DNA from: an uncultured bacterium
Lineage (GTDB): Bacteria; JACRDZ01
Length of the DNA: 64,000 nucleotides
Reading direction: 5' to 3'
NCBI GenBank assembly: GCA_964457585.1
Contig: CAYWFU010000004.1
Location: forward strand, 13,927 to 77,926
The notes under the pieces were generated by a model. The model searched no databases, was not told the origin of the DNA, and saw nothing but the letters and a program-made list of their open reading frames with translations. A program made the position numbers and the translations under genes. Shown one piece after another: positions 23,688 to 58,866 of this stretch (position 1 is its first letter; every line of letters begins with the position of its first letter).

Positions 23688-24311
23688 TTGATAATATATC
23701 AAACAAGTGGAAAATATATGACTATTCAAGAAAAACTGCAAATTATTCAAAAAATAACCGGATTGACTCAGACTAGATTGGCTGAAAAGTTCGGTGTGTC
23801 TTTCGTTGCTTTCAACAATTGGTGGACTGGTAAATCTTCACCACGGCCGAAAATGCTCTCAGCTATTGACGAGTTATTTTTGGAAGTAACCGGGCAAAAG
23901 ATTATTCCCGTTGAACTCTTGACTGCCAAAAAGCAGATATTGGTCAAAAAATCCAGAGATCATAAAAATGTTATTGCCGAAATATTAAATAGTCCGGATA
24001 TTTGCGACACATTTCTGCTTAAACTTACTTATAACAGCAATCGCATTGAAGGCAGTACTTTGACTGAGCCGGATACCTATTCAAACCTTAATGCTTCAAC
24101 AGGATTTAAATTTGAAGCTTGTCGTGCCGGCCAAATTCCAAAACCCATTCCAATTCCAATGGAAAATGTAGTAGCAAGAATGATAGAAAAGGATGAAATT
24201 GATGTTGGCCAATCAGCAAGACTTGCCAATAACATTGAAATTCCAACGCCCATAAAAATTCCGGATATTCCACCAAGAGAGGTCATAACAATTGATTCAA
24301 TAAGAAATTGA
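23688..24311 (+). pseudogene. Truncated HTH-Fic family gene: XRE-type HTH plus the N-terminal Fic motif only; the Fic core is missing.
   Basis: HTH (TQTRLAEKFGVSFVAFNNWWTGKSSPRPKMLSAIDELF). Fic N-terminal signature [16 protein letters not shown]. No HPFx[DE]GNGR core. The 3' part of the ORF (24077-24311) is antisense to the macB gene end, so the gene is cut off. Confidence 0.5.
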
Positions 24312-26050
24312 ATCATTATATCTTTTTTTCTGGCTCCAATAGCTTTACGAAGTCCGATTTCTTTAGTTCTTTCGGTCACAGAAACAAGCATTATATTCAT
24401 GATTCCAATTCCACCTACTAAGAGAGAAATAGTAGCTATTGAACCTAAAAGCCATGCAAGAGTTTTTGTAGTGCTTGACATTGCTTCTTGTATGTCTGCC
24501 ATATTTCGTATTGAAAATGAATTCTCATCTTTTTTACTTAAGTGATGTCTATAAGTAATTACTTTTTTAATGTCTTTTTGCGCTTCTTCCATTTGTTGAA
24601 TTTCGCTTACTTCAACATCAATTGAATCAAGAAATTCTTTTCCAAACACTCTATACATTGCAGTTGTATATGGGATAACGATAACATCATCATTATCCCT
24701 CCAGCCTGTTGCTCCTTTTTCAGGTAGAATTCCAATAATTCTAAAATTCATACTATTTATTTTTATGATTGCTTCAAGGGGATTTTCACCTTCATCAAAA
24801 AGTTGATTTATAACAGTTTTTCCAATTACTGCAACTTTTTCTCTTCCGATTAATTCTCCTTTTGTAAAAAAACGTCCTTTTGCAGGAACAGCCGCGCGGA
24901 TGTCAGGATAGTTTTCAGCAACTCCCTGTACTCTGGTGTTCCAATTTTTATTTTCATAAACAACTTGTCCTCTGCCATTTGCATTAGGTCCAACTCTTTT
25001 TATAATAGGTATTTTGGCTAAAGCATCTGCATCCTGTATAGTTAAACGTGTTACAGAACCGGCTTCTAGAGAAACCCCATGCATTTGTGTTGATCCAGGC
25101 ATTACTATTAAAAGGTTAGATCCCAGAGCAGATAAACTTTTAGCTATATTTTCTTTTGCTCCTTGACCAAGAGCGAGCATTGCAATAACAGCGGCAACCC
25201 CAATGAAAATTCCTAACATTGAAAGCAGAGAACGCATTTTATGCGAAAAAATTGAATCCATTGCCTGACGCAGATGATCAGAAAATTCAGCCTTACCCAT
25301 TGGACTGGCAGGTTCATAATTTTCTCCCTGTTCATTGGGCTTGCAATCTAATATTTTTTTTGACGAAACAGTAGGAATTTTTGTCTGATCAGAAATAATT
25401 TTTCCATCGCGCATCTTGATAATCCTTTTAGCGTGTTTAGCAACATCTTCTTCATGCGTAATCATAACAATAGTTTTACCTTCTTTGTTAAGATTCTCCA
25501 GAATTTTCATTATTTCATCCTGACTTTTTGTATCAAGATTACCTGTTGGTTCGTCAGCAAATATTACAAGCGGATCATTAACCAGTGCGCGAGCAATTGA
25601 AACTCTCTGCTGTTGTCCGCCTGATAATTCATTAGTATAATTTGTTTTTTTGTCTCTTAAACCAACTGCTTCTAATTTTCTTTCCGCTTTTTCAAATAAA
25701 TGCTTACGGCCGCCATATATTAAAGGAAGCTTAACATTATCGACTGTTGTTAATTTTGGAAGTAAATGAAATTGTTGAAAAACGAAACCTATGGACTGAT
25801 TTCGTAGAACTGCTAAATCATCTTCGCTGAATTTAGAAGTATCTTTACCGTTAAAAAAATATTCTCCTTCATCAGGTCTGTCTAAAAAACCTAATAAATG
25901 AAGCATGGTTGATTTTCCTGAACCGGAAGGTCCCATAATGGCAACAAATTCACCTTCATCAATTTTTAAATCAACTCCGCAAAGAGCCTTAAATTCAACT
26001 TTGCCTGTTCTATAAGTTTTTGCTAAATTTTTTATTTCTATTACTGTCAT
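24077..26050 (-). CDS. macB: MacB-type ABC transporter (fused ATPase-permease).
   Basis: MTVIEIKNL start at 26050; the ORF-track start at 26143 is an upstream extension antisense to the Gly-rich tail of the MFP gene. [24 protein letters not shown], then a periplasmic domain and FtsX-type TM helices. Confidence 0.85.
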
Positions 26051-26069
26051 TTTTTTCCCTGAAATAATA

Positions 26070-27758
26070 TTATCTTCTACCACCACCGCCACCACTACTA
26101 CTACTGCCAAATAAGCCCATTGGTCTAGGAGTGTTTTTATCATCTTTTTTAGGTAATGTTTTATTGATTACCTCACCTTCATTTATTCCCGAAATTACTT
26201 CAGTGTACTCATAATTATTGACTCCTGTTGTAATTTCACGAGGTAATTGTTTTCCATTTTCCATAACAAACACTAATTTGTTTTTACCTTTTTCTTTAAT
26301 TGCATCATTTGGAATAAATAAAACATTTTTTCGTTCCTCTGAAATTATATCCAAAGATGCATTCATTCCCGGTCTTAGAATTGAACGAGGATTTTCAATC
26401 TCAATTGTAACTTCAAAGGTTGTAACATTTGATACCACTGCTCCTTGTGGAGCTATTAAAAGAACCTTCCCTTTAAAATTTTCTTTTGGAAATGCATCAA
26501 CAACAATTTTTACCCTTTGATTTAAAAGTACTTTACCTATATCAGTTTCATCTACATTTGCTTTAACATAAACTCTTGTTAAATCAGCCATTGTAAGAAG
26601 TGTTGTCCCGCCGTTTACTGATGATATTCCGGATGATATTATATTTCCTTCTTGAACAAGTTTTTGAAGAATTGTTCCAGTGATAGGTGCTGTAACCAAT
26701 GTATCTTTATTTCTATCATTTGCTTCTTTTAAAGCTGATTTAGTACGTACAACTTCTGCTTCATTTGAATCCAAATCTTTTTTCTTTATTTCAATTTGAG
26801 ATTTATTGGATATAGCTAAACTTAGCGAGTTTTCTGCGTTTTTAACACTTGATTTTGCAACTTCTAAATCATTTTCTCTGATTATTTCATCTTTTAACTT
26901 TTGATTTGCGGCTTCAAGCGCATATTCCGCCTGTTTTACTTCAAGCTCAGCTAATTGAATATCTTCTTTTGTAGCCGAGTTTTTAACTATTTCTAAATTC
27001 TGTACAGCAGATTCATTTTGAGCTTTTGCATCCTCAAATTTTGCTTTAGCATTATCTAAATTTTCTTTTGAAACATAACCTTGTTCACCGAGTTTATTCA
27101 ATCTTTCATATTGTTTTTGCATTAGTTCTAAATTTGATTTAGATTGATTTAAAGTTGCTTCAGCCCTTTTTATTTCTTCCGGACGAGAACCTATTTTTAA
27201 TTTATTTAATTTTAGTTTAGCAATATTCAAATTGTTTTTTGCATTTTCAATATCTCTTAAATTTGTTGTTTTTTCGTTTTCAATTTTACTTTGCAATGTT
27301 TCCAGTTCTTTTTTTGCAGTTGCCAATGCTTCTTGTTTCAGAGCAATCTCTGTCTCGTTTTGTTTTGTTTGTAATTCAATATTTATTTTTGCTTGTTCTA
27401 ATTTTGCTCTGGCAGATCTTAAATATGCTTCAGCCTGATCTACGTTAGGTTGTGTATAAGTTTTTTCAACTTCAGCAATAAGTTGTCCGTCTTTTAAGAA
27501 ATCGCCTTTTTCAACCGGCATTTTAAGAATTTTGCCGCTTGCAGTTGATTTAACTTCTACAATTTCCCATGGCTCAATTGTTCCCGTAACATTAACAGAA
27601 ACAACAATATTTCCTCTTTTCACCGTAAAATAATTTTCTTCAATCGAACCTTTAGTTTTATCTTTCAATAAAAGATTACTTGCTAAAAATAAAGCAGCAA
27701 GCAAAGATAACAAAATAATTATAAATTTTTTAGATTTAAAATTCATCACCAATTGCAT
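26070..27758 (-). CDS. macA: Membrane fusion protein (MacA/HlyD family periplasmic adaptor) with a long coiled coil.
   Basis: Signal/TM. Long heptad-rich coiled coil (AKLEQAKINIELQTKQNETEIALKQEALATAKKELETLQ...). Beta-barrel/lipoyl-like segments. Gly/Ser-rich C-terminal tail. Confidence 0.8.
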   Translation of the reverse strand: MQLVMNFKSKKFIIILLSLLAALFLASNLLLKDKTKGSIEENYFTVKRGNIVVSVNVTGTIEPWEIVEVKSTASGKILKMPVEKGDFLKDGQLIAEVEKTYTQPNVDQAEAYLRSARAKLEQAKINIELQTKQNETEIALKQEALATAKKELETLQSKIENEKTTNLRDIENAKNNLNIAKLKLNKLKIGSRPEEIKRAEATLNQSKSNLELMQKQYERLNKLGEQGYVSKENLDNAKAKFEDAKAQNESAVQNLEIVKNSATKEDIQLAELEVKQAEYALEAANQKLKDEIIRENDLEVAKSSVKNAENSLSLAISNKSQIEIKKKDLDSNEAEVVRTKSALKEANDRNKDTLVTAPITGTILQKLVQEGNIISSGISSVNGGTTLLTMADLTRVYVKANVDETDIGKVLLNQRVKIVVDAFPKENFKGKVLLIAPQGAVVSNVTTFEVTIEIENPRSILRPGMNASLDIISEERKNVLFIPNDAIKEKGKNKLVFVMENGKQLPREITTGVNNYEYTEVISGINEGEVINKTLPKKDDKNTPRPMGLFGSSSSGGGGGRR

Positions 27759-28995
27759 CCTCCCATTCAGCTTGTTTTATTTTGTAATTATAATAAGCAT
27801 CGAAAATATTTATTTTTGCTTCATTGTAGACAACTTCAGCATCAATCAAATTTAAGTTTGAAACAAGTCCGTTTTGATATTGTACTTTTACTATATTGTA
27901 ATTTTTTTCAGATAATGCAAGATTCTTTTTTGAAACTTCAAGAGAAATTTTTAAATTTTCTAATTCATTATATATTTTTTTTATATTTAAAATAATTTCT
28001 CTTTCAAGCTTAATCCGTTCTTCACTAATTCTGTCTTTATCTGTTTCCGCCTGCCTGACATTTGTTTTTGTTAAACCGGCATCGAAAATCTGCCATGATA
28101 AACTGATCCCTGCTCTCCAATCTCTATCTTTAAAATTTATTTTATCATCGCTCCAATTATAACTTCCTGAACCTGATACTATTGGCAAATATCCTGTTTT
28201 AGCAATTTGAATATTTGTTTTTGAAATTTCCTGCTCATAATTTTTTATTTTCAATTGATAATTATTTTTTATTGCTTTATTTGTATATTCTTCTAAAACT
28301 AAACTTTCAACAAATATTTTTTTTATTCCATCATCGATACTTTCATTTGAAATAAATTTAAAATCATTTTCAATTTCAACATTTAAAATATTATTTAAAA
28401 TCATTTTTGCGGATTTTAATGCGTTTTGAGTTGTATTTAAATTTTGTCGTGTTTTTTCAAGAGTAATTTCTGCGCGTAAAACCTCAGTTTCAATTACCTT
28501 TCCTATCTCTAATAAATTTTTAGCATATTTAAGCTGCTCTTCATCACGATTAAATGAATCTTTATAAAAATTTAATTTTGATTCCAAAAGTAAAATATTA
28601 AAAAATGCTGTTTTTACTTCTAATATAATTTTATGTTTTATTTCAGTTTCTAAATATTTAGTTTGTTCAATTGATAAATTAGACTGATCAATTTGCAAAT
28701 AATTTTTACGATTGAAAATACTTTGGTTAACACTTACTGAGTTTAAAAACGTATTGCTACCATCTGCTCCTTGTGGTTTAAGATGAGAATAACTGCTTCC
28801 TAAATTAACAGAAGGGTATAACAATGTCTTATTTTTATCTTTTTGTAATATTACATTTTCCTTGTTTTTTTGATTAATTTTCCAGTCTGAATTATTTTTA
28901 AGAGCAATTTCTATTGCACTGTTTAAAGATAGTTCTTCACAATGTATATTTTGTGTAAAAATAAAAAATAAAAACATTATTGTTATTAAATCCAT
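27736..28995 (-). CDS. TolC-like outer membrane efflux protein.
   Basis: Signal peptide. Two OEP repeats with coiled-coil segments. 419 aa. Directly upstream of macA-macB. Confidence 0.75.
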   Translation of the reverse strand: MDLITIMFLFFIFTQNIHCEELSLNSAIEIALKNNSDWKINQKNKENVILQKDKNKTLLYPSVNLGSSYSHLKPQGADGSNTFLNSVSVNQSIFNRKNYLQIDQSNLSIEQTKYLETEIKHKIILEVKTAFFNILLLESKLNFYKDSFNRDEEQLKYAKNLLEIGKVIETEVLRAEITLEKTRQNLNTTQNALKSAKMILNNILNVEIENDFKFISNESIDDGIKKIFVESLVLEEYTNKAIKNNYQLKIKNYEQEISKTNIQIAKTGYLPIVSGSGSYNWSDDKINFKDRDWRAGISLSWQIFDAGLTKTNVRQAETDKDRISEERIKLEREIILNIKKIYNELENLKISLEVSKKNLALSEKNYNIVKVQYQNGLVSNLNLIDAEVVYNEAKINIFDAYYNYKIKQAEWEDAIGDEF

Positions 28996-49700: not shown

Positions 49701-50124
49701 ACTTGAAGTGAATTGGATAGATGAAGAAAATATATCTAGAACAAGTTTATTTGATAATTTAGAAGATACACTTATAGGTACAGATTATAGCATTGTCCCT
49801 ACAAGTGTATTTGATAGAAGAGATACATTTAATAAAGCCATCGGTTATATTGCCGCCCTTTACCAATTTTTTTGGAATGAAACGCACAGAACAATTTCCG
49901 GCCAAGTCATATCTAATAGTAGTGTTGGAATAGATGGAATTACAATCTATTTTTCTAATAATGGAGGGTCTGTTGTAACCAGTGGTGGTGGTTATTATAC
50001 TATTGATTTGCCAATTGGTTGGAGTGGTAGTGCTACACCGTCATACCTTAATTTTTCATTTGCCCCATCCTCTATTAATTATACTAATGTTAATGTAAAT
50101 CAAGATACTCAGAATTTTACTTGA
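46789..50124 (+). CDS. Secreted multidomain protein: propeptide + S8 subtilisin-like protease + zinc phospholipase-C / P1-nuclease-fold domain + C-terminal beta-sandwich (CarboxypepD_reg-like). Ends at an in-frame TGA.
   Basis: Signal peptide MGKNLFKTAYSLFFILILISNNSYA. S8 triad: VAVIDTGV, DDNGHGTFVAG, GTSASAPMISA. PLC-like: HQWIALQAY, HFWDPDGG, YYWLGRTAHLLMDMSVPAHVHND; compare B. cereus PC-PLC HFYDPDNG and FFYLGLSLHYLGDVNQPMHAAN. Confidence 0.8.
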   Translation: MGKNLFKTAYSLFFILILISNNSYAKTEPALNPFHLEIINKKITIKAQNVNFKDILKEIEKKSEIKVKIFEKVEDSNVSVDVKDIPLNKIEVLFEKMKLKSFVIYYDKESNPYEIWMLSTDKNVNNSTKGKIVRRNEIIRNAKFTEDKDIDNIKGKSIISKSYGKNKVLIRYVKNEIFLKFHRGVTKQEIKDILGKYNLVSKEENTLSKIGYVKAEILGDRDIESVIKEISKEYKLKTSEPNYISNVFAITDPLYENQWYIPDTNFDKAWPKLKNKKVVKIAVIDTGVNSKHPDLKNKILQGFDFVNNDSTSLDDNGHGTFVAGIIAGASNNIGIKGLFDSAKIIPIKTIDGNGAGTYEDVAKGIIYAADNGAKVINLSVGGYAYSFMLLDAVDYALTKGCIVVASGGNDGIEQEIYPAGYADVIGVSALDQNGQIWNKSNSGKHIDVCAPGVNILSLGLDENYVYASGTSASAPMISALAAMLVSEKPDVSSSVIEKLIMQSAKDLGDKGRDKVYGSGEIDALSVFGQEVKLFHDIAVRSVYLEPMVFDKDKLTYVVADIENVGTYRAEKCNVALYQIIGEEKKEIGRKTDVVVSDKLDVVFDWEPDGVKDGVKFEVVVVYKDDSNNANNSKITRLFFLREDGKLYVLYATEPPVHQWIALQAYKLTQKTSLKNEIGKFLDTSTGSLLYSPNFNPNNYGWNNNTNLPTNTNTALIEGTWEEDEGTRPINHFWDPDGGYNDGILLSDSALKSAVSCFDSAIANYKTFPTNAYYWLGRTAHLLMDMSVPAHVHNDQHLEKGFFKADNPENYELYTAYVPLSGVPIYKESNTNNSNLSIPDVTKLPDYWDTEVPQFYPRELVRLFYNLAEITDNCDSDDIIGEVENGNYNRFASRVELLFRLKSISSIIWYRQTINGNRSTGTSQILFIDRDFEYDRGDVGTVYEITKPAIYLYPNIAQQFDEKSYFEEEYDVLEVNWIDEENISRTSLFDNLEDTLIGTDYSIVPTSVFDRRDTFNKAIGYIAALYQFFWNETHRTISGQVISNSSVGIDGITIYFSNNGGSVVTSGGGYYTIDLPIGWSGSATPSYLNFSFAPSSINYTNVNVNQDTQNFT

Positions 50125-50133
50125 ACTCCACCA

Positions 50134-53100
50134 GTGAATAATAAAACTTTAGTTTTGTTATCAATAACAGGGAATAGTTCAGTTGTTGAAAACACACCAT
50201 TAACTCAATATACAGCACAAGCTTTTTTTAGTGATGGCTCAAAAGAAAGTGTAACACCAACAACATGGTCATCCAGCAATTTAAATGTTGCATCTATTTT
50301 AAATTCAGGTTTGTTAACTGTTAAAGAAGTTAGTGCTGATACAGAAATAACTATATATGCTAATTATTCTACCAAAACAGCAGAAATGAAAATTACTATA
50401 ATTAATAGTGGAAGTTCTGGAACTCAGGATAAAGAATTGCTTGTAAATGGTGGTTTTGAATTGGGAAACAATGGAAATTGGGTTTTATCAAACAGTTTTT
50501 ATATTAGTACCGATAAAATAACATATCCCAATCCTTATAATGGAAATGGTTATGCATGGGTTGCAAACAGTGATGGGACACCTGGAATTAATTTATATGG
50601 TAATATGTATCAATCAATTATGATTCCTTCTGAAGTAACATCTGTAAATCTTAGCGTTTGGGTTAGCATTACTACAAAAGAAACAAGTAATGTTCCAAAA
50701 GATGTGTTAACTATAGCGATACAAGATTCTTTAGGTAAATTAGAACTTGTAAGAGCTCTTTCAAATGTTAATGCAAATATTAATCCTAAAGATTATCAAC
50801 AGATACCATTTAACTTGAATTCTTATATAGGGAAAACAATTAGATTAAATTTTTTAGCTACCACAGATGGTATTAATCCTACAACATTCCGAATAGATGA
50901 TGTTAGTATTACAGCTAAAGTCCCTAATCCAAAGACGTTAATTTCATTAAATATTAATGGTCCAAGTGCTGTCAAAGAAAATGATTCGGCAAAATTTTCT
51001 GCTGATGCAGTTTTTAGCGATGGGTCTATAGAACCTGTAACCCCAAATTGGTCTGTAAATTCTAGTGCTGCTACCATATCAAGTTCAGGAGTTTTAAATG
51101 CTGGAAGTGTAGATACAGATACATCCGTTGTTGTTAAAGCAGATTATACTTCCGGTGGAAAAACTAACACTAAAAATGTTACTATAATAAATAGTCAACC
51201 ACAAGTAGGTTCATTACAAGTTAGTTTGAGTCCTCAAGGAGCAATAGGAGCGCAATGGCGAGTTGATGGAGGAAATTATCAGAATAGTGGAAATATTGTT
51301 TATGATTTGTCAGTTGGTGATAATCATATAGTGGATTTTAAAGATATACCAGGGTGGATTAAACCGAATAGTCAGTTTGTCAGTATTAAGAATAACCAAA
51401 CAACTCCTATCTCAGGAAATTATACTTTAAATACATATACAATTTCAACATATGCTGGAGCAGGAGGAAATATATCGCCATCTGGTGATGTAATATTGAA
51501 TTACGGCTCAAATCAGACGTTTAACATAACACCAAATAATGGATATAAAATAAGCGATGTAGTAGTTGATGGCGTTTCACAAGGTGCAATTACAACATAC
51601 CCATTTACGAACGTGACAGCCAATCGTATGATAAGTGCAAATTTTAATATAATTATTAATATCCCTTTTCCACCAACTAATATATCAGCCAGTGACGGAA
51701 CATATACAGACAAGATAAGCATAACATGGGGTGTAGTTTCCAATGCAACATATACAATATATCGTGCGACTTCTAATAGTGGTACTAAAACTTATATTGG
51801 GACAGCGACAGGTACAAGTTATGAAGATACATCAGCTTTGGCTGGGACCACATATTATTATTGGGTAACAGCAACAGATTCTAATGGGACGAGTAACTAT
51901 AGTTCGTATGATACAGGTTGGCGCAGTGGTGTTATTCCTTATTCACCTACTGAAGTATCTGCAAGTGCTGGAAATGGACAAGTGACTATTAATTGGGATA
52001 CTGCTTCAAGTGCGACGAGTTACAATATTTATTGGGATACAACTTCAGGGGTCTCGAAGATTAAAGGTACAAAAATTAGTAATGTCACAAGTCCATATCC
52101 GCATACAGGCAGAACAAATGGCACAACATATTATTATGTTGTAACGGCTATTAATGATTATGGAGAGAGTGGGGAATCTAATCAAGTAAATGCTACTCCA
52201 TCCACTTTGACAATTCCTACTGATGGACTTGTTGCATATTATTCGTTCAATGGCAATGCTAACGATGGAAGTGGAAATAGTAATAATGGTACAGTTTATG
52301 GAGCTACTTTAACAGCAGATAGGTTTTGGAATGCTAATAGCGCTTATAGTTTTGATGGAGTAAATGATTATATTATGATTCCATCAAACTCCAGTTTAGA
52401 TATTAAAGAAGATATTACAATTGCAGCATGGGTAAAGTTTAATAATTTGTCAAATAATAATTATTCTCAGATATTATGGCGTGGTGATAGTCAATATGCT
52501 CAGGATCCATATTCACTTTATGTATTGGCTGATAATGTAGGATTTCGTAGGGATATAAATACAGGGACAGGGAATGATATTAAGAATATAACGAAAAATA
52601 TTGGGGATTTAGATATAAATATATTTCATCTACTTGTTGGTAGTTATGATAGAACAAATGGTATTATGCGGTTATATATAGACGGAAACATGGGAATAGA
52701 AGAATATATGCCAGGGATGTCACAATATATTACTTCTTCTATGTGGAACGTAATTGGTGCGGTAGATTATGGTAATTGGCAGTTTTTTAATGGGATAATT
52801 GATGACATCCGTATTTATAATCGTGCTTTAAGTAATATAGAAATTAAAGTACTTTATCAAGAAGTTCCTGCTTTCCCTCCTACTAATGTGTCAGTAAATA
52901 CAGGGAATAATCAAGTAACAATCAGTTGGAATGTTGTAACTAATGCAACATCATACAATATCTACTGGTCAATCACACCTGGAGTAACAAAAGCAAATGG
53001 TATGAAAATAAGCACCGTAACAAGCCCATATTCAAATACCGGACTAATAAATGGAACAACATATTACTACATTGTAACAGCAGTAAACAGCTATGGAGAA

Positions 53101-55383
53101 AGTGCGGAGTCAAGTGAGGTATCTGGAACTCCAAATAATAATAATAATGTATTATTCTCCGACGATTTTAATGATGGAAATTATAATGGATGGACAGTAG
53201 TTGACCGCAATGACTGGAGTAATGGAGTTGGGGAGTGGAGCGTAGAGAATGGAATACTTAATCAAAAAGCAGATTGGGGTTGTATGCTATTAACCGGTGA
53301 CACTACATGGCAGAATTATACATTTGAAGCAGAGACATCAATAAAAAGTGTTTATTATAATGATTGGGATGGACCAGAATTCCTATTCCGTGTAAAAGAT
53401 AGTAAGAATTTTTATGTTTTCTACCTTCATTATCCTTTTCAACGAGCTAGAATAGTCAAATGGATTAATGGTAATGAAACTATTCTTGCAGATACAGGTA
53501 TTAATGGTCTTCCATTAAATCTCAACACTACATATAAAATTAAATGTGAGGTAAATGGTTCAGATATTAAGTGCTATATAAATGGGAATCTGATTTTATC
53601 TGCTATTGATTCCACTTTTGCGTCAGGGAAAATTGGATTTCGTACATGGAGATCGCAATCAACGTTTGATAATGTAATCGTAACTGCATACACATCTACC
53701 AATATTAACCAACCCCCACAAGTTTCCCTTTATCCTGAATATGAAACCACCTGGTTATCTGGTTCCATAAATTTTACTTTTGATACCTCTGATCCAGATG
53801 GATATATTACAAAAATAAAAATGGAATATGGAGATGGGAAATTTGATATTACACCTCCATTTATACATACATATAATTCAACAGGAAAATTTACTGCACG
53901 ACTCACTGTTTGGGATAATAATTATGATTCAAGCTGGGATGAAAGTAATATCATTGTTCCAACTGATTATGATAATGACGGACTTCCTGATACATGGGAA
54001 GTAACTTACAACCTGAGTCCTTATAATTCAACAGGTAATAACGGCTGGAATGGTGACCCTGATGGTGATGGAATAACAAACGGGGATGAGTGGAAAAATG
54101 TTTCTAAACCAAATGATCCATTAGATAATAAGCCTATTGCCAATGCTGGACTTGATCAGATTGTAAATCCTTCATTAGTCATTCTTGATGGATCAGGTAG
54201 TAGTGACCCCAATGGTGACCCACTGACATATTTATGGTACCAGACATCAGGAACTATTATTAATTTAATAAATCCAAATGCTGTTAATCCTAGCTTTATT
54301 GGTAAGAAAGCTGGTGATTATATCTTTAGTTTGATAGTTAATGATGGAAAAATTGATAGTGTTTCAGATGCAGTGATTATTACTATTAACAATATCGTTC
54401 CAACCGCAGATGCTGGGATAGATCAAACTGTTTATTCAAATACTACTGTTACTCTTAATGGCAGTGGCAGTACAGATGCAAATGGAGATAATCTAATTTA
54501 TACTTGGACACAAACTGTGGGAACAAATGTAACTTTATCGGATAACCAGAATATAAATCCAACATTTACTCCAATCTTTTCAGGTGTTTATACATTTCAG
54601 TTAATAGTTAGTGACGGTAAAGATAACAGTCTGCTTGACACAGTTAATATCATAGTAAATCAGCCGAACACCGTACCAACAGCCAATGCTGGTTCTGATC
54701 AGACTGTGAATACAGGAACATTGGTAACGCTAAATGGTTCAGGGAGTTCCGATGCTGACGGAAATTATTTGACTTACACATGGACACAAATCGCAGGAAC
54801 AAATGTGACCTTATCGAATAACCAAAGTATTAATCCAACATTTACTCCAATCTTTTCAGGTGTTTATACATTTCAGTTAATAGTAAATGACGGCACAGAT
54901 AACAGTCTCCCGGATATAGTTAATATCATATTAAATCAGCCAAATACCGTACCAACAGCTAATGCTGGGATAGATCAAACTATAAATACAGGAACAAAAG
55001 TAACCATGGATGGTTCAGGGAGTTCCGATGCTGACGGAGATTCTCTGACTTACACATGGGCACAAACAGCAGGAACAACAGTAACTTTATCAGATACCCA
55101 TAGCATGAGTCCAACATTTACTCCAATTGTTTCAGGTGTTTATACATTTCAATTAATAGTAAATGACGGCACAGATAACAGTCTCTCTGATATAGTTAAT
55201 ATCATAGTAAATCATAAAACTAGACTATGCCTTATAACCAATATTATTCCTGAAAATTCACAAGTAGGAATTATTAATAAGATGAATGATATTAAAGATA
55301 GAGTATTAATAAAAAATAGTATAAGCAAATATTTCGTTAAACTTTATTATAAAATTAGTCCATATTTGATTAATAATAAATGA
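50134..55383 (+). CDS. Giant (1749 aa) adhesin-like ORF: Big_2, FN3, LamG-like, DUF1080-like jelly-roll, PKD, thrombospondin-type DPDGDG, four ~85-aa PKD-like repeats, and a conserved ~55-aa C-terminal domain. It has no start signal of its own and is in frame with the upstream protease ORF.
   Basis: The ORF-track start is GTG at 50134 with no RBS or signal peptide. It is in the same frame as 46789-50124, separated only by TGA plus 9 nt. Domain motifs are recognisable by eye. Four repeats ANAG.DQTVN.G..VTL.GSGSSD.DGD.LTYTW.Q. Confidence 0.7.
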   Translation: MNNKTLVLLSITGNSSVVENTPLTQYTAQAFFSDGSKESVTPTTWSSSNLNVASILNSGLLTVKEVSADTEITIYANYSTKTAEMKITIINSGSSGTQDKELLVNGGFELGNNGNWVLSNSFYISTDKITYPNPYNGNGYAWVANSDGTPGINLYGNMYQSIMIPSEVTSVNLSVWVSITTKETSNVPKDVLTIAIQDSLGKLELVRALSNVNANINPKDYQQIPFNLNSYIGKTIRLNFLATTDGINPTTFRIDDVSITAKVPNPKTLISLNINGPSAVKENDSAKFSADAVFSDGSIEPVTPNWSVNSSAATISSSGVLNAGSVDTDTSVVVKADYTSGGKTNTKNVTIINSQPQVGSLQVSLSPQGAIGAQWRVDGGNYQNSGNIVYDLSVGDNHIVDFKDIPGWIKPNSQFVSIKNNQTTPISGNYTLNTYTISTYAGAGGNISPSGDVILNYGSNQTFNITPNNGYKISDVVVDGVSQGAITTYPFTNVTANRMISANFNIIINIPFPPTNISASDGTYTDKISITWGVVSNATYTIYRATSNSGTKTYIGTATGTSYEDTSALAGTTYYYWVTATDSNGTSNYSSYDTGWRSGVIPYSPTEVSASAGNGQVTINWDTASSATSYNIYWDTTSGVSKIKGTKISNVTSPYPHTGRTNGTTYYYVVTAINDYGESGESNQVNATPSTLTIPTDGLVAYYSFNGNANDGSGNSNNGTVYGATLTADRFWNANSAYSFDGVNDYIMIPSNSSLDIKEDITIAAWVKFNNLSNNNYSQILWRGDSQYAQDPYSLYVLADNVGFRRDINTGTGNDIKNITKNIGDLDINIFHLLVGSYDRTNGIMRLYIDGNMGIEEYMPGMSQYITSSMWNVIGAVDYGNWQFFNGIIDDIRIYNRALSNIEIKVLYQEVPAFPPTNVSVNTGNNQVTISWNVVTNATSYNIYWSITPGVTKANGMKISTVTSPYSNTGLINGTTYYYIVTAVNSYGESAESSEVSGTPNNNNNVLFSDDFNDGNYNGWTVVDRNDWSNGVGEWSVENGILNQKADWGCMLLTGDTTWQNYTFEAETSIKSVYYNDWDGPEFLFRVKDSKNFYVFYLHYPFQRARIVKWINGNETILADTGINGLPLNLNTTYKIKCEVNGSDIKCYINGNLILSAIDSTFASGKIGFRTWRSQSTFDNVIVTAYTSTNINQPPQVSLYPEYETTWLSGSINFTFDTSDPDGYITKIKMEYGDGKFDITPPFIHTYNSTGKFTARLTVWDNNYDSSWDESNIIVPTDYDNDGLPDTWEVTYNLSPYNSTGNNGWNGDPDGDGITNGDEWKNVSKPNDPLDNKPIANAGLDQIVNPSLVILDGSGSSDPNGDPLTYLWYQTSGTIINLINPNAVNPSFIGKKAGDYIFSLIVNDGKIDSVSDAVIITINNIVPTADAGIDQTVYSNTTVTLNGSGSTDANGDNLIYTWTQTVGTNVTLSDNQNINPTFTPIFSGVYTFQLIVSDGKDNSLLDTVNIIVNQPNTVPTANAGSDQTVNTGTLVTLNGSGSSDADGNYLTYTWTQIAGTNVTLSNNQSINPTFTPIFSGVYTFQLIVNDGTDNSLPDIVNIILNQPNTVPTANAGIDQTINTGTKVTMDGSGSSDADGDSLTYTWAQTAGTTVTLSDTHSMSPTFTPIVSGVYTFQLIVNDGTDNSLSDIVNIIVNHKTRLCLITNIIPENSQVGIINKMNDIKDRVLIKNSISKYFVKLYYKISPYLINNK

Positions 55384-55460
55384 GTAATATAATTATAAAT
55401 AGAAATTTGAAAGTTAAAAAACACTGGATCCCGCTAAAACACTGCGGGTATGATTGTGTC

Positions 55461-55492
55461 ATCCCCGACATATTTTATCGGGGATCTAATTT
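55461..55492. terminator. Hairpin(s) between convergent genes; putative bidirectional terminator.
   Basis: atccccga ... tcggggat (55461-55485) followed by a T-rich tail. A second hairpin cccgc/gcggg lies at 55430-55448. Confidence 0.45.
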
Positions 55493-55505
55493 GTATAATT
55501 AATTT

Positions 55506-55748
55506 TTATGCTACTTCCTGTAAATGTCTGACAGAAACCATATCTCTTCTTTCAATAGGGCGGATATCATTTTCGTTTAAAGATATTAATGCATGGGTAT
55601 CTCCACCTGCTGTAACAAATTCAACCTCATAATCATAGCTCCCATAAATTTCCACTATAGTACCAAGATCACCTTTTTGTAAATTGTACTTATCTATATC
55701 TTTTGTTAATACTACTACATCAACTAATTTATATTTCATTTTATTCAC
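55506..55748 (-). CDS. Small conserved protein (DUF4926-like, tentative).
   Basis: 80 aa. VVLTKDIDKYNLQKGDLGTIVEIYGSYDYEVEFV pattern. Its start overlaps the stop of the upstream partner by 8 nt. Confidence 0.4.
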   Translation of the reverse strand: MNKMKYKLVDVVVLTKDIDKYNLQKGDLGTIVEIYGSYDYEVEFVTAGGDTHALISLNENDIRPIERRDMVSVRHLQEVA

Positions 55749-56085
55749 CTCCTGGGATTAAAGTTATTAATCGAGGTATTTCTTCACCATTTAAAATTAT
55801 CCATACAGATGTTACTATAATATTAAAAGTATTCGGTCCTTTTAAAGGTGCGGTTATTTCATATTTTTTACCAAATGAAGAGAATTTACCTTCTTTTGCA
55901 TCGTTATTTAAAAGGTGTTGTTCTCTAATATCTTTTTCAAATATTTCCCAATTTTCATAAGTATAACCTGCTTGTTTAAAAAAATTAGCTTTATATTTTC
56001 CAACCGGATGAATAGGTGATAATATATAATCTTTTAGTTTAATCGGTTCTATTATTGCATATTCTTTATTTGGAAGTAACGGCAT
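55741..56085 (-). CDS. Hypothetical 114-aa protein, translationally coupled upstream partner of the DUF4926-like gene.
   Basis: ORF with conserved-looking core (HPVGKYKANFFKQAGYTYENWE...TSVWI). Overlapping stop and start with the next gene. Confidence 0.35.
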   Translation of the reverse strand: MPLLPNKEYAIIEPIKLKDYILSPIHPVGKYKANFFKQAGYTYENWEIFEKDIREQHLLNNDAKEGKFSSFGKKYEITAPLKGPNTFNIIVTSVWIILNGEEIPRLITLIPGGE

Positions 56086-56180
56086 GAAATTTATCCCTCT
56101 AAATTTTATAGATATTTAATCTTATCCATAAAAAATTCAGTAAAAAATGATTCTTATCCAAATTTTTTTCCCGATTCTCT

Positions 56181-56231
56181 ATAAATAAATAAATAAATAA
56201 ATAAATTAATTAATTAATTAATTAATTAATA
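56181..56231. repeat. Microsatellite (AAAT)n followed by (TTAA/TAAT)n.
   Basis: ataaataaataaataaataaataaattaattaattaattaattaattaat. Confidence 0.9.
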
Positions 56232-56436
56232 TATTTTCAATTTTATCACTTAAATGGACTGACTTCAATCAAATTTTTGAATTTGTTAGACTTTTGACTT
56301 TTATCGACAAAATTCGCAAAGCTATAATAAAAATTTTTTAAAGAATCAGAATGGATACTTGCAAATGAGGATTATAATATGGAACACTAAACAATTAAAT
56401 AATTTTTATAAAAATTTTATTCGATATAAATTTGAA

Positions 56437-56622
56437 ATATACTCAAACTAATCAGGTTTGCGAATTTAGAATGCTCATATGTGCTTCAGATTGGAACGAT
56501 CTGATTGAGCAAAACCGCAGGTGTAGTTTTAACTACATTGAGGATTTTGTGAATGAAGATCGTTTCAAGATGGAGTACAGAGGGGCGTTATAAATTCGCA
56601 AACCTGATTAGTTTGAGTATAT
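56437..56622. repeat. MITE-like element: perfect 32-bp terminal inverted repeats flanking 122 nt.
   Basis: atatactcaaactaatcaggtttgcgaattta (56437-56468) is the exact reverse complement of 56591-56622. There is an internal palindrome tgtagttttaactaca. The ATG at 56553 of the following broken gene lies inside the element. Confidence 0.85.
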
Positions 56623-58547
56623 ATACAGATGCTGATTTAACAAAAATTTATGATTTTGCTTCTGGAATACAGGAAGGAGTAAAAGTTACAATATGGAATA
56701 TAAACAAGGAATTAGTAGAAAACACAAGGTACTGGTGGAGAGCATGGTCGTATGTAAATAGTATTAATAGTGATCCGATGAATCCAGCATCATTTTTTGT
56801 AAATAAAATAAATGAACCTCCGGCAAAAGTAACATTAAGCAGTCCGCCAGAGGGATCAAGTGTATCATCACTTTTAACAAATCTTAAAGTAAATAATGCA
56901 TCTGACCCTGATAGGGATATAGTAACCTATGATTTTAATTTGAATGATGATAAAGGATTTTCATTTGAGACAACTAAAGTCCCAGAAACTGCTGGTGGTA
57001 CAACAGCTTCAAAAGACTCCTTTACTTAAGGATAATACATGGTATAAGTGGACTGCACGTGCAAGGGATGAACATGATTCAACAGGTGCATGGATGGATG
57101 AAGCATTGTTTTTTGTAAATACAGCAAATGATGCACCTGAAACGCCAAAATTAAAAAGTCCATCTGATGGCAGTGAAATAACAGTCAAAACACCTGTTTT
57201 AGAAATAAATAGCTCAATAGATTTAGATGGAAATAAAGTTTCATATTATTTTGAAATAGATACAACAAATAATTTTACAAGCAGCAAGCTAATAAAATCA
57301 AACGAACTATTTGTTACACTATGGCAGACTCCGGAATTAGATGACAATACAATCTGGTACTGGAGGGTAAGAGCAACAGATGGTGCAGCATATTCAAGCT
57401 GGATGAATGCAAAGATTTTTGTAAATACAAATAATGATGCACCAAGTATCCCAATATTAATAAGTCCAAAAGAAACAATTGTAACAATGCTTACACCGGA
57501 ATTAAAAATTCAACCTTCAATCGATATAGATAGAGACCAAATAAGTTATGAATATCAAGTGTATGATACAACAAAAAATTTAGTAACAAGCGCAGATAAT
57601 AAAGGAATAAGCTGGATAATAGTAAATACTTCTGGCAGATTCAGGCAAGAGATGAACATGGTCAGGGAAGTGGTTGGTCTAATATCGCATGGTTTATAGT
57701 AAATCAGGGTAATGATGCGCCTACAGCACCAAAACCAGCCAGACCAGAAAATAACAGTACTATTGGTACTCAAACTCCAGATCTTGAGATAATTAATTCA
57801 ACCGATTTAGATGGTGACAATCTGACATATTATTTTGAAATTTTTGATAATGACCAATTTTTGGGTGAAGCAAAAGCTAAAATAGAACATTTCCCGGAAA
57901 ATCCATCAGGTAAAACAACATGGAACGTGGATACAATTTTACCAAGTGATAAGAAATACTATTGGAGGGCAAAAGCACATGATGGGAAAGAATATAGTGG
58001 GTGGTCAGAGACTTTTAGTTTTACAATAGCAGGAATAATGCCCGATATAATACCACCACAGGTTTCATCAGTAAGTCCAGCAAATAGTGCTGCTAATATT
58101 GCAATTAGATCAAGCTTAACAGCAACATTCAATGAATTGATGTATGAATCAACTATTAATATAGCTACATTCATACTTACAAGCCCATCAGGGCAAATTT
58201 TTGGTACAGTAAGATACAGCTGGACAACAGCCACATTTACTCCATCAGGTAATCTTGCATATTCTACGATTTATACTGCTAAAATAACAACTGAAGCAAA
58301 AGATTTAGCCGGGAATAAATTGGCAAGTAATTATGTGTGGAGCTTTACTACAGAATCTAAACCCAAAAAAGGCCCATGTATTATAACTAATGCTATTCCT
58401 TCAAATTCACGAACAGGGATTATTAAGAAGATGAACGATTTTAAAGATAGAGTATTAATTAAAAATAGTATATCAGCATATTTCGTTGAATTTTATTATA
58501 AAATTAGTCCAAAGTTAGTTAATAATATTTGCATCCGATTGCAATAG
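56553..58547 (+). pseudogene. Disrupted repeat-rich surface protein gene: ~95-aa tandem repeats plus an SbsA-type Ig-like domain plus the same C-terminal domain as the giant ORF. It is split by at least two frameshifts and is 5'-truncated at the MITE-like element.
   Basis: Three ORFs (56553-57029, 56944-57699, 57861-58547) carry the same repeat (W..RA.D..G..S.W......FVNT.NDAP..P.L.SP.DGS...TP.L.INNS.D.DGD...Y.FEI). The frame changes near 56990-57020 and 57615. The reading continues in the third frame from ~57640. No signal peptide. C-terminal CIITNAIPSNSRTGIIKKMNDFKDRVLIKNSISAYFVEFYYKISPKLVNN. Confidence 0.55.
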
Positions 58548-58866
58548 AAATGTATAATCAGGACAGGATCTAAGTACGATTTATTACTAATTTTAGATTT
58601 TTTAGTTTATATTTTTTTATAACAGATTTACCAATATTATTAATTTGATCAGGAGTTTCTTTTCTTATTCCAATTTTATTTCTTACTTCATGCAATTCCC
58701 ATAAAACATAATCCTCCTCTTTTTTATAATCATTATTAAGGGAGACATTAGCGGTATCCTTTAAATTTTTTAGTTATTTTCTTTCTGATATATTACAAAT
58801 ATATTGCTGATTTTATTGAATTATGATATTTATTAATAATATAAAAACCTAACTTAAGGTAATTAC

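What the first reader, a model, noticed from the sequence alone, without database searches (positions are those of the whole stretch)
50100..50140. A single in-frame TGA separates the S8/PLC protease ORF from the 1749-aa adhesin ORF, which has no start signal of its own
ORF 46744-50124 and ORF 50134-55383 are in the same reading frame (50134-46744 = 3390 = 3x1130). The only interruption is TGA at 50122-50124 followed by ACT CCA CCA. The downstream ORF begins at a GTG with no RBS and no signal peptide, although it is plainly an extracellular adhesin-type protein. The domain flow is seamless across the stop: a CarboxypepD_reg-like beta-sandwich before it and a Big_2 domain after it. TGA is a genuine stop elsewhere in this window (e.g. 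13093-13095, fabH, fabD, fabF). So this is either a recent nonsense mutation or sequencing error in a ~2880-aa giant secreted protein, or a recoding event (programmed read-through or selenocysteine).
Basis: seen in the sequence. Interest (0 to 1): 0.72.

Follow-up and report, generated by a model that had tools for sequence, protein, structure and literature searches.

The report
Giant surface-protease gene split by stop
One very large gene for a secreted protease with a long tail of surface-binding domains is cut in two by a single stop codon, most likely through an ordinary recent mutation (or a base-calling error) and not through special decoding.

Summary
A single TGA (50122-50124) separates a 1,111-codon ORF from a 1,752-codon open frame in the same phase, with 9 nt before the first possible start (GTG 50134).

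The two halves look like one ancestral gene of about 2,864 codons:
- Only the upstream half has a Sec signal peptide.
- Only the downstream half has a C-terminal CFI-box-like sorting tail.
- The TGA sits at the last residue of a CarboxypepD_reg-like module, where homologous tandem modules have Ala, Gly or Lys.
- The sequence after it is a short linker and then a complete Big_2-like domain, which recurs internally 260 residues later.
- No candidate start downstream has a Shine-Dalgarno match or a signal-peptide-like hydrophobic stretch.

Recoding is not supported. TGA ends fabH, fabD, fabF, leuA and gspC at the ends of their family profiles. The RNA after the TGA folds no better than shuffles (z = -0.86). 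The window holds no tRNA or sel genes.

The neighbouring gene with the same tail carries two frameshifts, and an independent assembly reproduces them. This supports real decay of surface-protein genes at this locus. No orthologue or read-level data could be reached.

Verdict: an ordinary nonsense-interrupted gene, and a recent one, because 1,752 codons remain open. Interest is low.

The parts
46789..50124 (+). Upstream ORF of 1,111 codons plus TGA. Order of parts: signal peptide, STN-like N-terminal domain, fervidolysin-type propeptide, subtilase S8 domain, conserved PLC-like region ending in AIGYIAALYQFFWNETH, and one CarboxypepD_reg-like module.
   Evidence: It is identical to the public protein P0001.
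46789..46863 (+). Sec-type signal peptide MGKNLFKTAYSLFFILILISNNSYA, with cleavage expected after SYA.
   Evidence: Read from the sequence. The hydrophobic maximum is 2.89, like the signal peptides of homologues (2.96-3.5). The cleavage site is inferred from the -3/-1 small-residue rule.
47617..48345 (+). Peptidase_S8 catalytic domain (aa 277-519). The Asp (VIDTGV), His (HGTFVAG) and Ser (GTSASAP) motifs are present.
   Evidence: Pfam PF00082, E 1.5e-53, profile positions 2-288 of 288. The motifs are read from the translation.
49891..50124 (+). CarboxypepD_reg-like beta-sandwich module. Its final consensus residue is the TGA codon.
   Evidence: PF13620 positions 1-75 of 82, E 1.4e-4. In the alignment with eight tandem modules of P0003 and P0010, the TGA falls on the last position of the ...QDYTA end motif.
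50122..50124 (+). The single in-frame TGA.
50125..50133 (+). ACT CCA CCA (Thr-Pro-Pro). These are linker codons between the two domains, and they lie between the stop and the first possible start.
   Evidence: The equivalent linker before the internal paralogous unit is KVPNP.
50134..50136 (+). GTG, the first possible start of the downstream frame. Public gene calls use it (P0162, 1,749 aa). It has no Shine-Dalgarno match, and no signal peptide follows it.
50125..55383 (+). Downstream open frame of 1,752 codons plus TGA. Order of domains: Big_2-like, MAM/CBM-like, Big_2-like, Flg_new_2, fn3, Laminin_G_3, fn3, DUF6250-like, PKD, TSP3 repeats, four K319L-type PKD domains, and a CFI-box-like tail.
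50152..50424 (+). First Big_2-like domain, starting 9 codons after the TGA.
   Evidence: PF02368 positions 7-74 of 79, E 0.011. It is 45% identical (E 5e-18) to the internal unit at downstream residues about 270-360.
55228..55380 (+). C-terminal CFI-box-CTERM-like tail (CLITNIIPENSQVGIINKMNDIKDRVLIKNSISKYFVKLYYKISPYLINNK). It is a short variant without the usual transmembrane segment.
   Evidence: NF041770, E 1.7e-7, 30.9 bits, below the curated cutoff of 40. It is 76% identical to the tail of the neighbouring gene.
55425..55490 (.). G+C-rich structured region followed by a U-rich stretch after the stop of the giant frame. It is a plausible terminator shared with the convergent toxin-antitoxin-like pair.
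   Evidence: RNA fold -29.6 kcal/mol, z = -3.3. A terminator function is inferred.
56553..58547 (+). Context: a neighbouring Ig-repeat gene with the same CFI-box-like tail (58377-58526). It has no signal peptide and is broken by two frameshifts, near 57000 and near 57610.
   Evidence: The repeat units continue across frames. Pfam hits are, and the tail. The independently assembled contig L002 is 100% identical.

Best explanation
46789-55383 was, until recently, one gene of about 2,864 codons. It encoded a Sec-exported modular protein: a subtilase (S8) plus a conserved PLC-like region, followed by a long array of Ig-like, lectin-like and PKD domains, and ending in a CFI-box-type C-terminal sorting tail.

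A single base change turned the last codon of the CarboxypepD_reg-like module into TGA. GGA (Gly) or TCA (Ser) could each give TGA in one step. Homologous modules have Ala, Gly or Lys at this position.

In this organism TGA is an ordinary stop. Translation therefore ends there, and the cell exports a 1,111-residue protease that has lost its binding array and its tail. The downstream 1,752 codons have no ribosome-binding site, no signal peptide and no promoter or terminator boundary of their own. They are not made as an independent exported protein. At most a small fraction would be made through unprogrammed UGA leakage or local re-initiation.

Because no second stop or frameshift has accumulated in 5.2 kb, the event is very recent, or it is a variant within the sampled population.

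Shown: the anatomy, the stop status of TGA, and the complementary distribution of signal peptide and tail. Inferred: the direction and age of the mutation, and the fate of the products.
For: (1) TGA is a true terminator here. fabH, fabD, fabF, leuA and gspC end at TGA, and their family profiles are matched to within a few positions of the profile end. Nine of about 39 long ORFs end in TGA.

(2) Export signals are split between the halves.
- The upstream N-terminus has a signal peptide (hydrophobic maximum 2.89). All 10 candidate starts downstream score at most 1.42.
- GTG 50134 has no Shine-Dalgarno match.

(3) The downstream frame ends in a CFI-box-CTERM-like tail (NF041770, E 1.7e-7).
- The complete extracellular-type proteins with this tail that were read (P0170, P0171, P0177, P0178) all begin with signal peptides. 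P0170 has the same short tail variant.
- The tail therefore implies Sec export, which only the upstream half can supply.

(4) The TGA lies at a domain boundary.
- In an alignment with eight tandem modules from P0003 and P0010, it occupies the last residue of the ...QDYTA end motif. In every one of those modules a linker of 4-6 residues and another Ig-like domain follow.
- Here TPPVNN and a complete Big_2-like domain follow. That domain is 45% identical (E 5e-18) to an internal unit that is preceded by another domain.

(5) Every family member read that contains the end of the conserved core (...AIGYVAALYQLFWxETH) carries a C-terminal extension after it. These run from about 100 to about 900 aa and often hold anchoring modules: T9SS tail, dockerin, Fib_succ_major or LRR. 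The upstream ORF alone would have the shortest extension, at 78 aa, and no anchor.

(6) The 1,752-codon frame is open against log10 P about -63. Only 4.4% of substitutions would create a stop, so neutral decay would be expected to break the frame after roughly 0.1-1.3% divergence.

(7) Surface-protein genes are decaying at this locus. The neighbouring gene with the same tail has two frameshifts and no signal peptide. A Logan assembly of run SRR12113406 reproduces that sequence base for base. A contig from run SRR12113405 does the same for 55156-56467. The consensus here is therefore reproducible.
Against: - No read-level or independent-assembly evidence covers position 50122 itself. The independent contigs stop at 55156.
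- No orthologue exists to show a sense codon at this position. The best relative (P0002/L001, 53% identity over the aligned core, different G+C content) diverges exactly after the conserved core.
- Some family members are about 1,100 aa long (P0031, P0032). A protease of the upstream size is therefore not abnormal in itself.
- The intactness of 1,752 codons is equally what one would see if the downstream part were still expressed and under selection.
- The CFI-box match is below the curated cutoff, and no experimental work on this tail was found.
Confidence: 0.62

Rival explanations
1. Artefact or minority allele. The organism's gene is intact, and the TGA is a base-call or consensus error, or a variant carried by only part of the population that the assembler happened to choose.
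For: - The source is evidently a metagenome-derived contig. The exact proteins are known from one contig of 89.5 kb only.
- A single substitution would be enough.
- The downstream frame is perfectly intact.
- The public record calls two separate proteins, P0001 and P0162, with no sign of curation.
- The relative L001 also has a one-base frameshift in its repeat region, so breaks of this kind are common in assembled giant genes.
Against: - Where independent Logan assemblies from two runs overlap the window (55156-56467 and 56596-60533), they are 100% identical. This includes both frameshifts of the neighbouring gene. The consensus in this region is therefore reproducible, not error-prone.
- All housekeeping genes in the window are full length.
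- Substitution errors are rare in short-read consensus (general knowledge).
Confidence: 0.15
2. Functional leaky stop (programmed or exploited read-through). The TGA is maintained so that most ribosomes make a free 1,111-aa protease, while a minority read through, with Trp or another near-cognate residue inserted. That minority product would be the 2,864-aa protease carrying the binding array and the CFI-box tail.
For: - UGA is the leakiest stop. A wild-type E. coli reporter showed about 2% read-through at 37 C and about 4% at 25 C, through competition between Trp-tRNA and RF2 (PMC10570021).
- tRNA-Trp variants that enhance UGA decoding occur in diverse bacteria (PMC13092985).
- The stop lies exactly in an inter-domain position, where any inserted residue would be tolerated.
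- The downstream frame is fully intact.
- Both a short and a long form would be plausible products, since family members of both sizes exist.
Against: - No stimulatory structure follows the stop (z = -0.86), and there is no Rfam match.
- The TGA-A context also occurs at ordinary stops in the window: ORF 11026-13095, gspC and leuA.
- It is a single case in the window.
- No conservation can be shown.
- The neighbouring gene shows plain decay.
- A recent nonsense mutation explains everything with fewer assumptions.
Confidence: 0.1
3. Two genes by design. The protease gene ends naturally at the TGA. The 1,749-aa protein is made by termination-reinitiation at GTG 50134, 9 nt downstream, and reaches the surface by a route that needs no N-terminal signal.
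For: - The public gene calls are exactly this (P0001 and P0162).
- A start codon within 9 nt of a stop is a classic coupling arrangement (general knowledge).
- Family members of about 1,100 aa exist (P0031, P0032).
- The tail is an uncharacterised C-terminal signal.
Against: - The downstream protein would begin exactly at an inter-domain linker, with the first strand of a Big_2-like domain, as its internal paralogous unit does.
- Complete proteins with the same tail carry signal peptides.
- No type I secretion genes flank it. The next genes are LpxB and an MsbA-like ABC transporter. The MacB/HlyD-family/OEP set at 24-29 kb is a MacAB-TolC-type pump, which takes its substrates from the periplasm (general knowledge).
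- The upstream protein would lack the C-terminal anchoring module that many family members carry.
Confidence: 0.08
4. Selenocysteine insertion at the TGA.
For: There is only the in-frame TGA itself, plus a small A-U hairpin 14-37 nt downstream.
Against: - The hairpin has only A-U and G-U pairs apart from the closing C-G. Its loop is UUUA, with no G. The region folds no better than shuffles (z = -0.86; 37 of 200 shuffles fold as well).
- There is no Rfam hit.
- The position aligns with Ala, Gly or Lys at the edge of a beta-sandwich module, not with Cys or a redox site.
- No tRNA gene was found in the window, and none of the ORFs scanned matched a sel-gene family.
Confidence: 0.02
5. Alternative genetic code, with TGA read as Gly (code 25) or Trp (code 4).
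For: G+C content is low (about 30%), and Gly occurs at the equivalent position in 2 of 8 homologous modules.
Against: - Six conserved genes end at TGA. For fabH, fabD, fabF, leuA and gspC the family profile is matched to within a few positions of its end.
- No other gene in the window needs an internal TGA to be read.
Confidence: 0.01

Closest known systems
Pseudogenised giant adhesin genes (siiE, shdA, sadA and ratB in host-adapted or invasive Salmonella lineages)
   Same: These are very large, repetitive surface-protein genes that are recurrently inactivated by point mutations while the rest of the genome stays intact (PMC6540521). Here one giant gene carries a nonsense codon, and its neighbour carries two frameshifts.
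   Different: The organism is an uncultivated, low-G+C lineage. Its LpxB is at best 66-68% identical to MAGs labelled Firestonebacteria, Desantisbacteria and Poribacteria. The protein is a protease with a binding array and a CFI-box-like tail, not a T1SS or autotransporter adhesin. No population data are available to show recurrence.
Unprogrammed UGA read-through by Trp-tRNA in bacteria
   Same: A UGA followed by an open, in-frame extension. Basal leakage of a few percent has been measured in E. coli reporters (PMC10570021).
   Different: Nothing here shows that leakage occurs or is used. There is no special context or structure.
Bacterial selenoprotein genes (UGA plus an adjacent SECIS hairpin, as in fdhF; recalled from general knowledge)
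   Same: An in-frame UGA inside a long coding frame.
   Different: There is no SECIS-like element, the position is not a Cys or redox site, and no Sec machinery was seen.
Modular S8 subtilases with a fervidolysin-type propeptide and variable C-terminal extensions (the family of P0002, P0004, P0012, P0017, P0040 and others)
   Same: They share the signal peptide, the STN-like domain, the propeptide, the S8 domain and a conserved region of about 400 aa ending in AIGYVAALYQLFWxETH. A lineage-specific array of binding or anchoring domains follows.
   Different: If read as one gene, this member would have the longest extension seen, at about 1,830 aa. It is also the only one seen with a CFI-box-like tail. 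As annotated, it is the only one cut after a single 78-aa module.
CFI-box-CTERM domain proteins (NCBIfam NF041770)
   Same: The C-terminal location and the motifs C-[FIL]-I-[AT]-......FRD/KDR-x-L......YYK-x-SP are shared.
   Different: The score is below the curated cutoff (30.9 and 36.9 bits against 40). The tail ends right after YYKISPxL and lacks the hydrophobic segment of canonical members. P0165, P0170 and P0172 share this short variant.

Membership tests
Nonsense-interrupted single gene (split gene or recent pseudogene) | The two ORFs are in the same frame, separated only by a stop, and the second has no start signals of its own. | tested here: met
Nonsense-interrupted single gene (split gene or recent pseudogene) | Features needed once per protein are divided between the halves: the N-terminal signal peptide lies only upstream and the C-terminal sorting tail only downstream. 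| tested here: met
Nonsense-interrupted single gene (split gene or recent pseudogene) | Domain architecture is continuous across the stop. | tested here: met
   The TGA falls on the last residue of the module, and a linker and a complete Big_2-like domain follow.
Nonsense-interrupted single gene (split gene or recent pseudogene) | Orthologues have one uninterrupted ORF with a sense codon at the site. | not testable with these tools
   No orthologue was found in the protein searches, the genome-contig scan or the metagenome scan with a degenerate junction pattern. The best relative diverges after the conserved core.
Bacterial selenoprotein gene | A SECIS stem-loop lies directly 3' of the UGA. 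| tested here: not met
   Fold z = -0.86. The only hairpin is almost entirely A-U and G-U, with loop UUUA. No Rfam match.
Bacterial selenoprotein gene | The UGA aligns with Cys or Sec at a functional site in homologues. | tested here: not met
   It aligns with Ala, Gly or Lys at the end of a beta-sandwich module.
Bacterial selenoprotein gene | selA, selB, selC and selD are present in the genome. | not testable with these tools
   Only the 64-kb window is available. No tRNA gene was found in it, and none of the ORFs scanned matched a sel-gene family.
Programmed stop-codon read-through | The stop and its context are conserved in related genomes while the extension stays under purifying selection. 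| not testable with these tools
   No related loci are available.
Programmed stop-codon read-through | There is a distinctive leaky context or a downstream stimulatory structure. | tested here: not met
   TGA-A also occurs at three ordinary stops in the window. There is no structure beyond shuffles.
Alternative genetic code 4 or 25 | TGA is not used as a terminator, and in-frame TGAs are widespread in conserved genes. | tested here: not met
Subtilase (Peptidase S8) | S8 profile match with the Asp, His and Ser catalytic motifs. | tested here: met
   PF00082, E 1.5e-53, full profile. VIDTGV, HGTFVAG and GTSASAP are present in the translation.
CFI-box-CTERM domain protein (NF041770) | The profile score is above the curated cutoff. 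| tested here: not met
   30.9 bits for the giant frame and 36.9 bits for the neighbour, against a cutoff of 40. Only profile positions 1-48 and 1-51 of 69 are matched.
CFI-box-CTERM domain protein (NF041770) | The domain lies at the extreme C-terminus of a protein with an N-terminal signal peptide. | tested here: inconclusive
   The C-terminal position is met. The signal peptide is present only if the two ORFs are read as one.
Type I secretion substrate (giant RTX-type adhesin) | Adjacent HlyB-type ABC transporter, membrane-fusion protein and TolC genes, plus RTX nonapeptide repeats before a C-terminal signal. | tested here: not met
   The downstream genes are LpxB and an MsbA-like transporter. 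The only tripartite set in the window is of MacB type, more than 20 kb away on the other strand. No RTX repeat family is among the Pfam hits.

The most novel reading that the evidence does not exclude
The TGA is a maintained, leaky stop that sets the ratio of two products from one gene. One is a freely released 1,111-aa subtilase. The other is a rare 2,864-aa form in which the same protease is tethered through a 1,750-aa binding array and a CFI-box-type tail. This would be a bacterial chromosomal example of isoform control by stop-codon read-through in a giant surface protein.
Probability: 0.07. Interest if true: 0.6.

Novelty: already known. Interest (0 to 1): 0.2.

Why it matters
For annotation, the two public gene calls (1,111 aa and 1,749 aa) should be treated as one interrupted gene. 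The 1,749-aa 'protein' should not be taken as an independent, start-bearing product.

Biologically it is a small data point. Giant surface-protein genes in an uncultivated low-G+C lineage appear to be decaying or varying within the population, and the neighbouring gene with the same tail is also broken.

The finding would be of wider interest only if the stop proved to be conserved and leaky, as a read-through switch between a free and a tethered protease. Nothing found here points that way.

Tried and rejected
- SECIS or selenocysteine. RNA folding of 50110-50200 gave z = -0.86. Rfam gave nothing at gathering scores for the whole window, and only two chance-level hits with permissive settings on 49900-50400.
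- Alternative genetic code. Rejected because six conserved genes end at TGA, five of them with near-complete profile coverage.
- Invertible segment. An inverted repeat flanks the TGA (50068-50094 and 50386-50412, 23 of 27 complementary). 6 of 40 Markov simulations reach the same value, and inverting the segment gives many stops.
- Type I secretion as a route that needs no signal peptide. There is no T1SS next to the gene. LpxB and an MsbA-like transporter lie downstream, and a MacB-type pump lies far upstream.
- Promoter and terminator scans. Counts equal those of shuffles, so they are uninformative.
- Orthologue comparison. A junction-spanning protein search, a shorter junction query, a genome-contig scan and a degenerate junction pattern in metagenome contigs found no close relative. 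The best homologue (L001) shares only the core.
- Independent assembly of the TGA site. Exact look-ups of P0001, of the 1,749-aa product and of the upstream PIN gene found no contig. The Logan contigs found (L002, L003) cover 55156-56467 and 56596-60533 only.
- Structure prediction across the junction.
- An early inference that the downstream ORF was unannotated, drawn from its absence, was wrong. It exists publicly as P0162.
- No paper mentions the CFI-box.

Full report
**Observation**

The sequence reads ...AAT TTT ACT TGA ACT CCA CCA GTG AAT..., with the TGA at 50122-50124 and a GTG at 50134. The ORF list gives 46744-50124 and 50134-55383 on the + strand, in the same phase. From stop to stop the downstream frame is open from 50125 to 55383, which is 1,752 sense codons.

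The probable start of the upstream gene is ATG 46789. It gives MGKNLFKTAYSLFFILILISNNSYA|K..., a typical signal peptide. The joint reading would therefore be 1,111 + 1 + 1,752 = 2,864 codons.

An open frame of 1,752 codons at this composition cannot be chance. Log10 P is about -63, and the two other frames of the same DNA hold 149 and 229 stops. Being in the same frame is by itself only a 1-in-3 event. fabH (which ends in TGA) and fabK are also in frame. The case rests on the anatomy, not on the phase.

**Is TGA a stop in this organism?**

Yes. Nine long ORFs in the window end in TGA. For fabH, fabD, fabF, leuA and gspC the curated family profile is matched to within a few positions of its end just before the TGA. 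No other gene in the window needs an internal TGA to be read. Genetic codes 4 and 25 are excluded.

**What the two halves are**

Upstream half:
- signal peptide;
- a short N-terminal domain conserved in homologues;
- a fervidolysin-type propeptide (weak match);
- a full Peptidase_S8 domain (E 1.5e-53), with the Asp, His and Ser motifs visible;
- a conserved region of about 400 aa ending in AIGYIAALYQFFWNETH;
- one CarboxypepD_reg-like module (E 1.4e-4).

Pfam sees nothing there.

Downstream half: Big_2-like (weak, E 0.011), a MAM/CBM-like domain, a second Big_2-like unit, Flg_new_2, fn3, Laminin_G_3, fn3, a DUF6250-like domain, PKD, TSP3 repeats and four K319L-type PKD domains.

**The C-terminal tail**

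The last 50 or so residues of the downstream frame (CLITNIIPENSQVGIINKMNDIKDRVLIKNSISKYFVKLYYKISPYLINNK) match NCBIfam NF041770, CFI-box-CTERM. The match has E 1.7e-7 and 30.9 bits, below the curated cutoff of 40.

The same tail, 76% identical, ends the neighbouring gene at 56553-58547. A profile of the two tails, searched against 1.8 billion representative proteins, found 29 proteins. Eleven of them were read:
- Canonical members have CFIATAAYGS...LR.FRD..L....G..FV..YY..SP, followed by a hydrophobic segment.
- P0165, P0170 and P0172 have the same short form as here, ending just after YYK.SP.
- The complete members with extracellular-type domains (P0170, P0171, P0177, P0178) all begin with signal peptides. 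Their hydrophobic maxima are 2.96-3.5.

The tail thus marks a Sec-exported protein. In this window the signal peptide is only on the upstream ORF (2.89). None of the 10 candidate starts in the first 230 or so downstream codons has one (at most 1.42). GTG 50134 has no Shine-Dalgarno match either, whereas about 60% of the genes in the window have a match of at least 4 nt.

**Where exactly the TGA sits**

The upstream C-terminal module was aligned with eight tandem modules of the same type from P0003 and P0010. The TGA falls on the last position of the module's end motif (consensus ...QDYTA; Ala, Gly or Lys in the homologues). In every homologue a linker of 4-6 residues and another Ig-like domain follow.

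Here TPPVNN and a complete Big_2-like domain follow. That domain is 45% identical (E 5e-18) to the unit at downstream residues about 270-360. The alignment starts at NNKTL / NPKTL, and the internal unit is preceded by another domain. The downstream ORF therefore begins exactly as an internal segment of a modular protein does. GGA (Gly) or TCA (Ser) could each give TGA by one substitution. This last point is inference.

**Family context**

Every homologue read that contains the end of the core (...LFWxETH) carries a C-terminal extension after it. These run from about 100 to about 900 aa and often hold an anchoring module: T9SS tail, dockerin, Fib_succ_major or LRR. The upstream ORF alone would have the shortest extension, at 78 aa, and no anchor. 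The joint reading would have the longest.

The best relative is P0002 in locus L001. It is 53% identical over the tblastn-aligned core and comes from a different organism, with G+C of 41-51%. It aligns only to residues 50-1033 and then continues with Flg_new repeats. Its gene is itself broken by a one-base insertion in the repeats.

No closer relative was found in two protein searches, in the genome collection, or with a degenerate junction pattern in the metagenome collection. LpxB from the window is at best 66-68% identical to MAGs labelled Firestonebacteria, Desantisbacteria and Poribacteria, so the lineage is poorly sampled.

**Recoding**

- The 91 nt around and after the TGA fold no better than shuffles (z = -0.86). 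The only hairpin is a 10-bp stem that is almost entirely A-U and G-U, with loop UUUA.
- Rfam gives nothing at gathering thresholds, and only two chance-level hits on the opposite strand with permissive settings.
- No tRNA gene was found in the window, and none of the ORFs scanned matched a sel-gene family.
- The TGA-A context also occurs at three ordinary stops in the window.
- The site aligns with a structurally neutral domain-edge residue, not with Cys.

Selenocysteine is therefore very unlikely, and nothing marks the stop as specially leaky. Ordinary UGA leakage exists in bacteria, at about 2-4% in an E. coli reporter (PMC10570021). tRNA-Trp variants that enhance it occur in some bacteria (PMC13092985). 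A small amount of full-length product cannot be excluded.

**Other routes considered**

- A secretion route independent of a signal peptide (T1SS) is not supported. The genes downstream are LpxB and an MsbA-like transporter. The only tripartite system, at 24-29 kb, is of MacB type. A type II secretion cluster (GspC, GspD, GspE) lies at 5.7-10.8 kb. It is compatible with Sec-dependent export, but the link is inferred.
- The inverted repeat flanking the TGA is not beyond chance, and inverting the segment creates stops.
- The consensus promoter and terminator scans are uninformative. A structured region after the giant frame (55425-55490, z = -3.3) is a plausible terminator. Only 9 nt separate the two ORFs.

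**Real mutation or artefact?**

There is indirect evidence only.

The neighbouring gene 56553-58547 is built of Ig-like repeat units that continue across two frame changes, near 57000 and near 57610. It has no signal peptide and carries the same tail. A Logan assembly of run SRR12113406 (L002) is 100% identical to 56596-60533, including both frameshifts. A contig from run SRR12113405 (L003) is 100% identical to 55156-56467.

The consensus in this region is therefore reproducible across assemblers and runs. Decay of surface-protein genes here is real, and the housekeeping genes are intact. This favours a real nonsense codon over an error.

No independent contig reaches 50122, however.

If the downstream part is untranslated, its intactness limits the age of the event. 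Only 4.4% of substitutions would create a stop. With or without indels, a break would be expected after roughly 0.1-1.3% neutral divergence.

**Verdict**

The best reading is one ancestral gene of about 2,864 codons for a Sec-exported subtilase with a long binding array and a CFI-box-like tail, interrupted by a single ordinary stop codon.

| Reading | Probability |
|---|---|
| Real, recent nonsense mutation | about 0.6 |
| Consensus error or minority allele | about 0.15 |
| Functional leaky stop | about 0.1 |
| Two genes by design, with re-initiation at the GTG | about 0.08 |
| Selenocysteine | about 0.02 |
| Alternative genetic code | about 0.01 |

This is a known kind of event. Giant adhesin genes are often pseudogenised, for example siiE, shdA and sadA in invasive Salmonella lineages (PMC6540521). 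Interest is low. The practical consequence is that the two public gene calls (P0001 at 1,111 aa and P0162 at 1,749 aa) should be read as one interrupted gene.

Noticed in passing
window 56553-58547: A neighbouring gene of Ig_Rha78A_N-like and Big_5 repeats is broken by two frameshifts, near 57000 and near 57610. It has no signal peptide and ends in the same CFI-box-like tail as the giant frame. The Logan contig L002 (SRR12113406) is 100% identical, so the frameshifts are reproduced by an independent assembler (though possibly from the same reads).
   Followed up: yes
window 56437-56622: A near-perfect palindrome of about 186 nt (arms of 92 nt, 76% complementary, 2 nt apart). The DNA fold is -60 kcal/mol with z = -14. 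It contains the ATG of the neighbouring gene and occurs once in the window. The two Logan contigs break exactly at its arms. It may be a MITE-like insertion that removed the gene's 5' end.
   Followed up: partly
window 56183-56236: An (AAAT)n(AATT)n microsatellite lies in the non-coding stretch between the toxin-antitoxin-like pair and the neighbouring surface-protein gene.
   Followed up: no
window 55228-55380 and 58377-58526; proteins P0165, P0170, P0172: A short variant of the CFI-box-CTERM tail ends just after YYK.SP..L and lacks the hydrophobic segment of canonical members. It scores below the NCBIfam cutoff and seems to be a sub-family of its own in A+T-rich uncultivated bacteria. No literature on the CFI-box was found.
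   Followed up: partly
window 46864-49890; proteins P0002, P0004, P0012, P0014, P0017, P0021, P0031, P0040: An uncharacterised but widespread architecture has these parts in order: a signal peptide, a short STN-like domain, a propeptide, S8, a CARDB-like stretch, and a conserved region of about 400 aa (YYWLGRTAHLLMDMSVPAHV ... AIGYVAALYQLFWxETH). The conserved region has only a weak phospholipase C resemblance (E 0.004), and Pfam has no model for it.
   Followed up: partly
L001 13860-13870: The closest relative's gene is also interrupted. One extra T (GGCACGTAT[T]ACCGTT) shifts the frame inside the Flg_new repeats. The public calls of 1,295 aa and 522 aa are really one gene of about 1,800 aa ending in a Fib_succ_major domain.
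   Followed up: partly
window 43900-46655 and 55506-56085: Small toxin-antitoxin-type genes flank the giant gene. Upstream are a nucleotidyltransferase (MNT-like), DUF5647 and a PIN gene. A DUF4926/DUF6883 pair lies on the minus strand immediately downstream. The surface-protein genes therefore sit in an island-like, low-G+C (0.25-0.27) stretch.
   Followed up: partly
window 1900-10810 and 24077-28995: A type II secretion cluster (GspE 5739-7454, GspD 7572-9833, delta-type GspC 9830-10810) and a MacB / HlyD-family / OEP tripartite pump are present in the window. The organism is therefore a diderm with Sec-dependent secretion.
   Followed up: partly
A technical point: the word-indexed protein search did not return the 1,749-aa public protein P0162, although the query contained 420 identical residues. 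The short junction query did not return P0001 either. Absence from that search is therefore weak evidence that a sequence is missing from the collection.
   Followed up: yes
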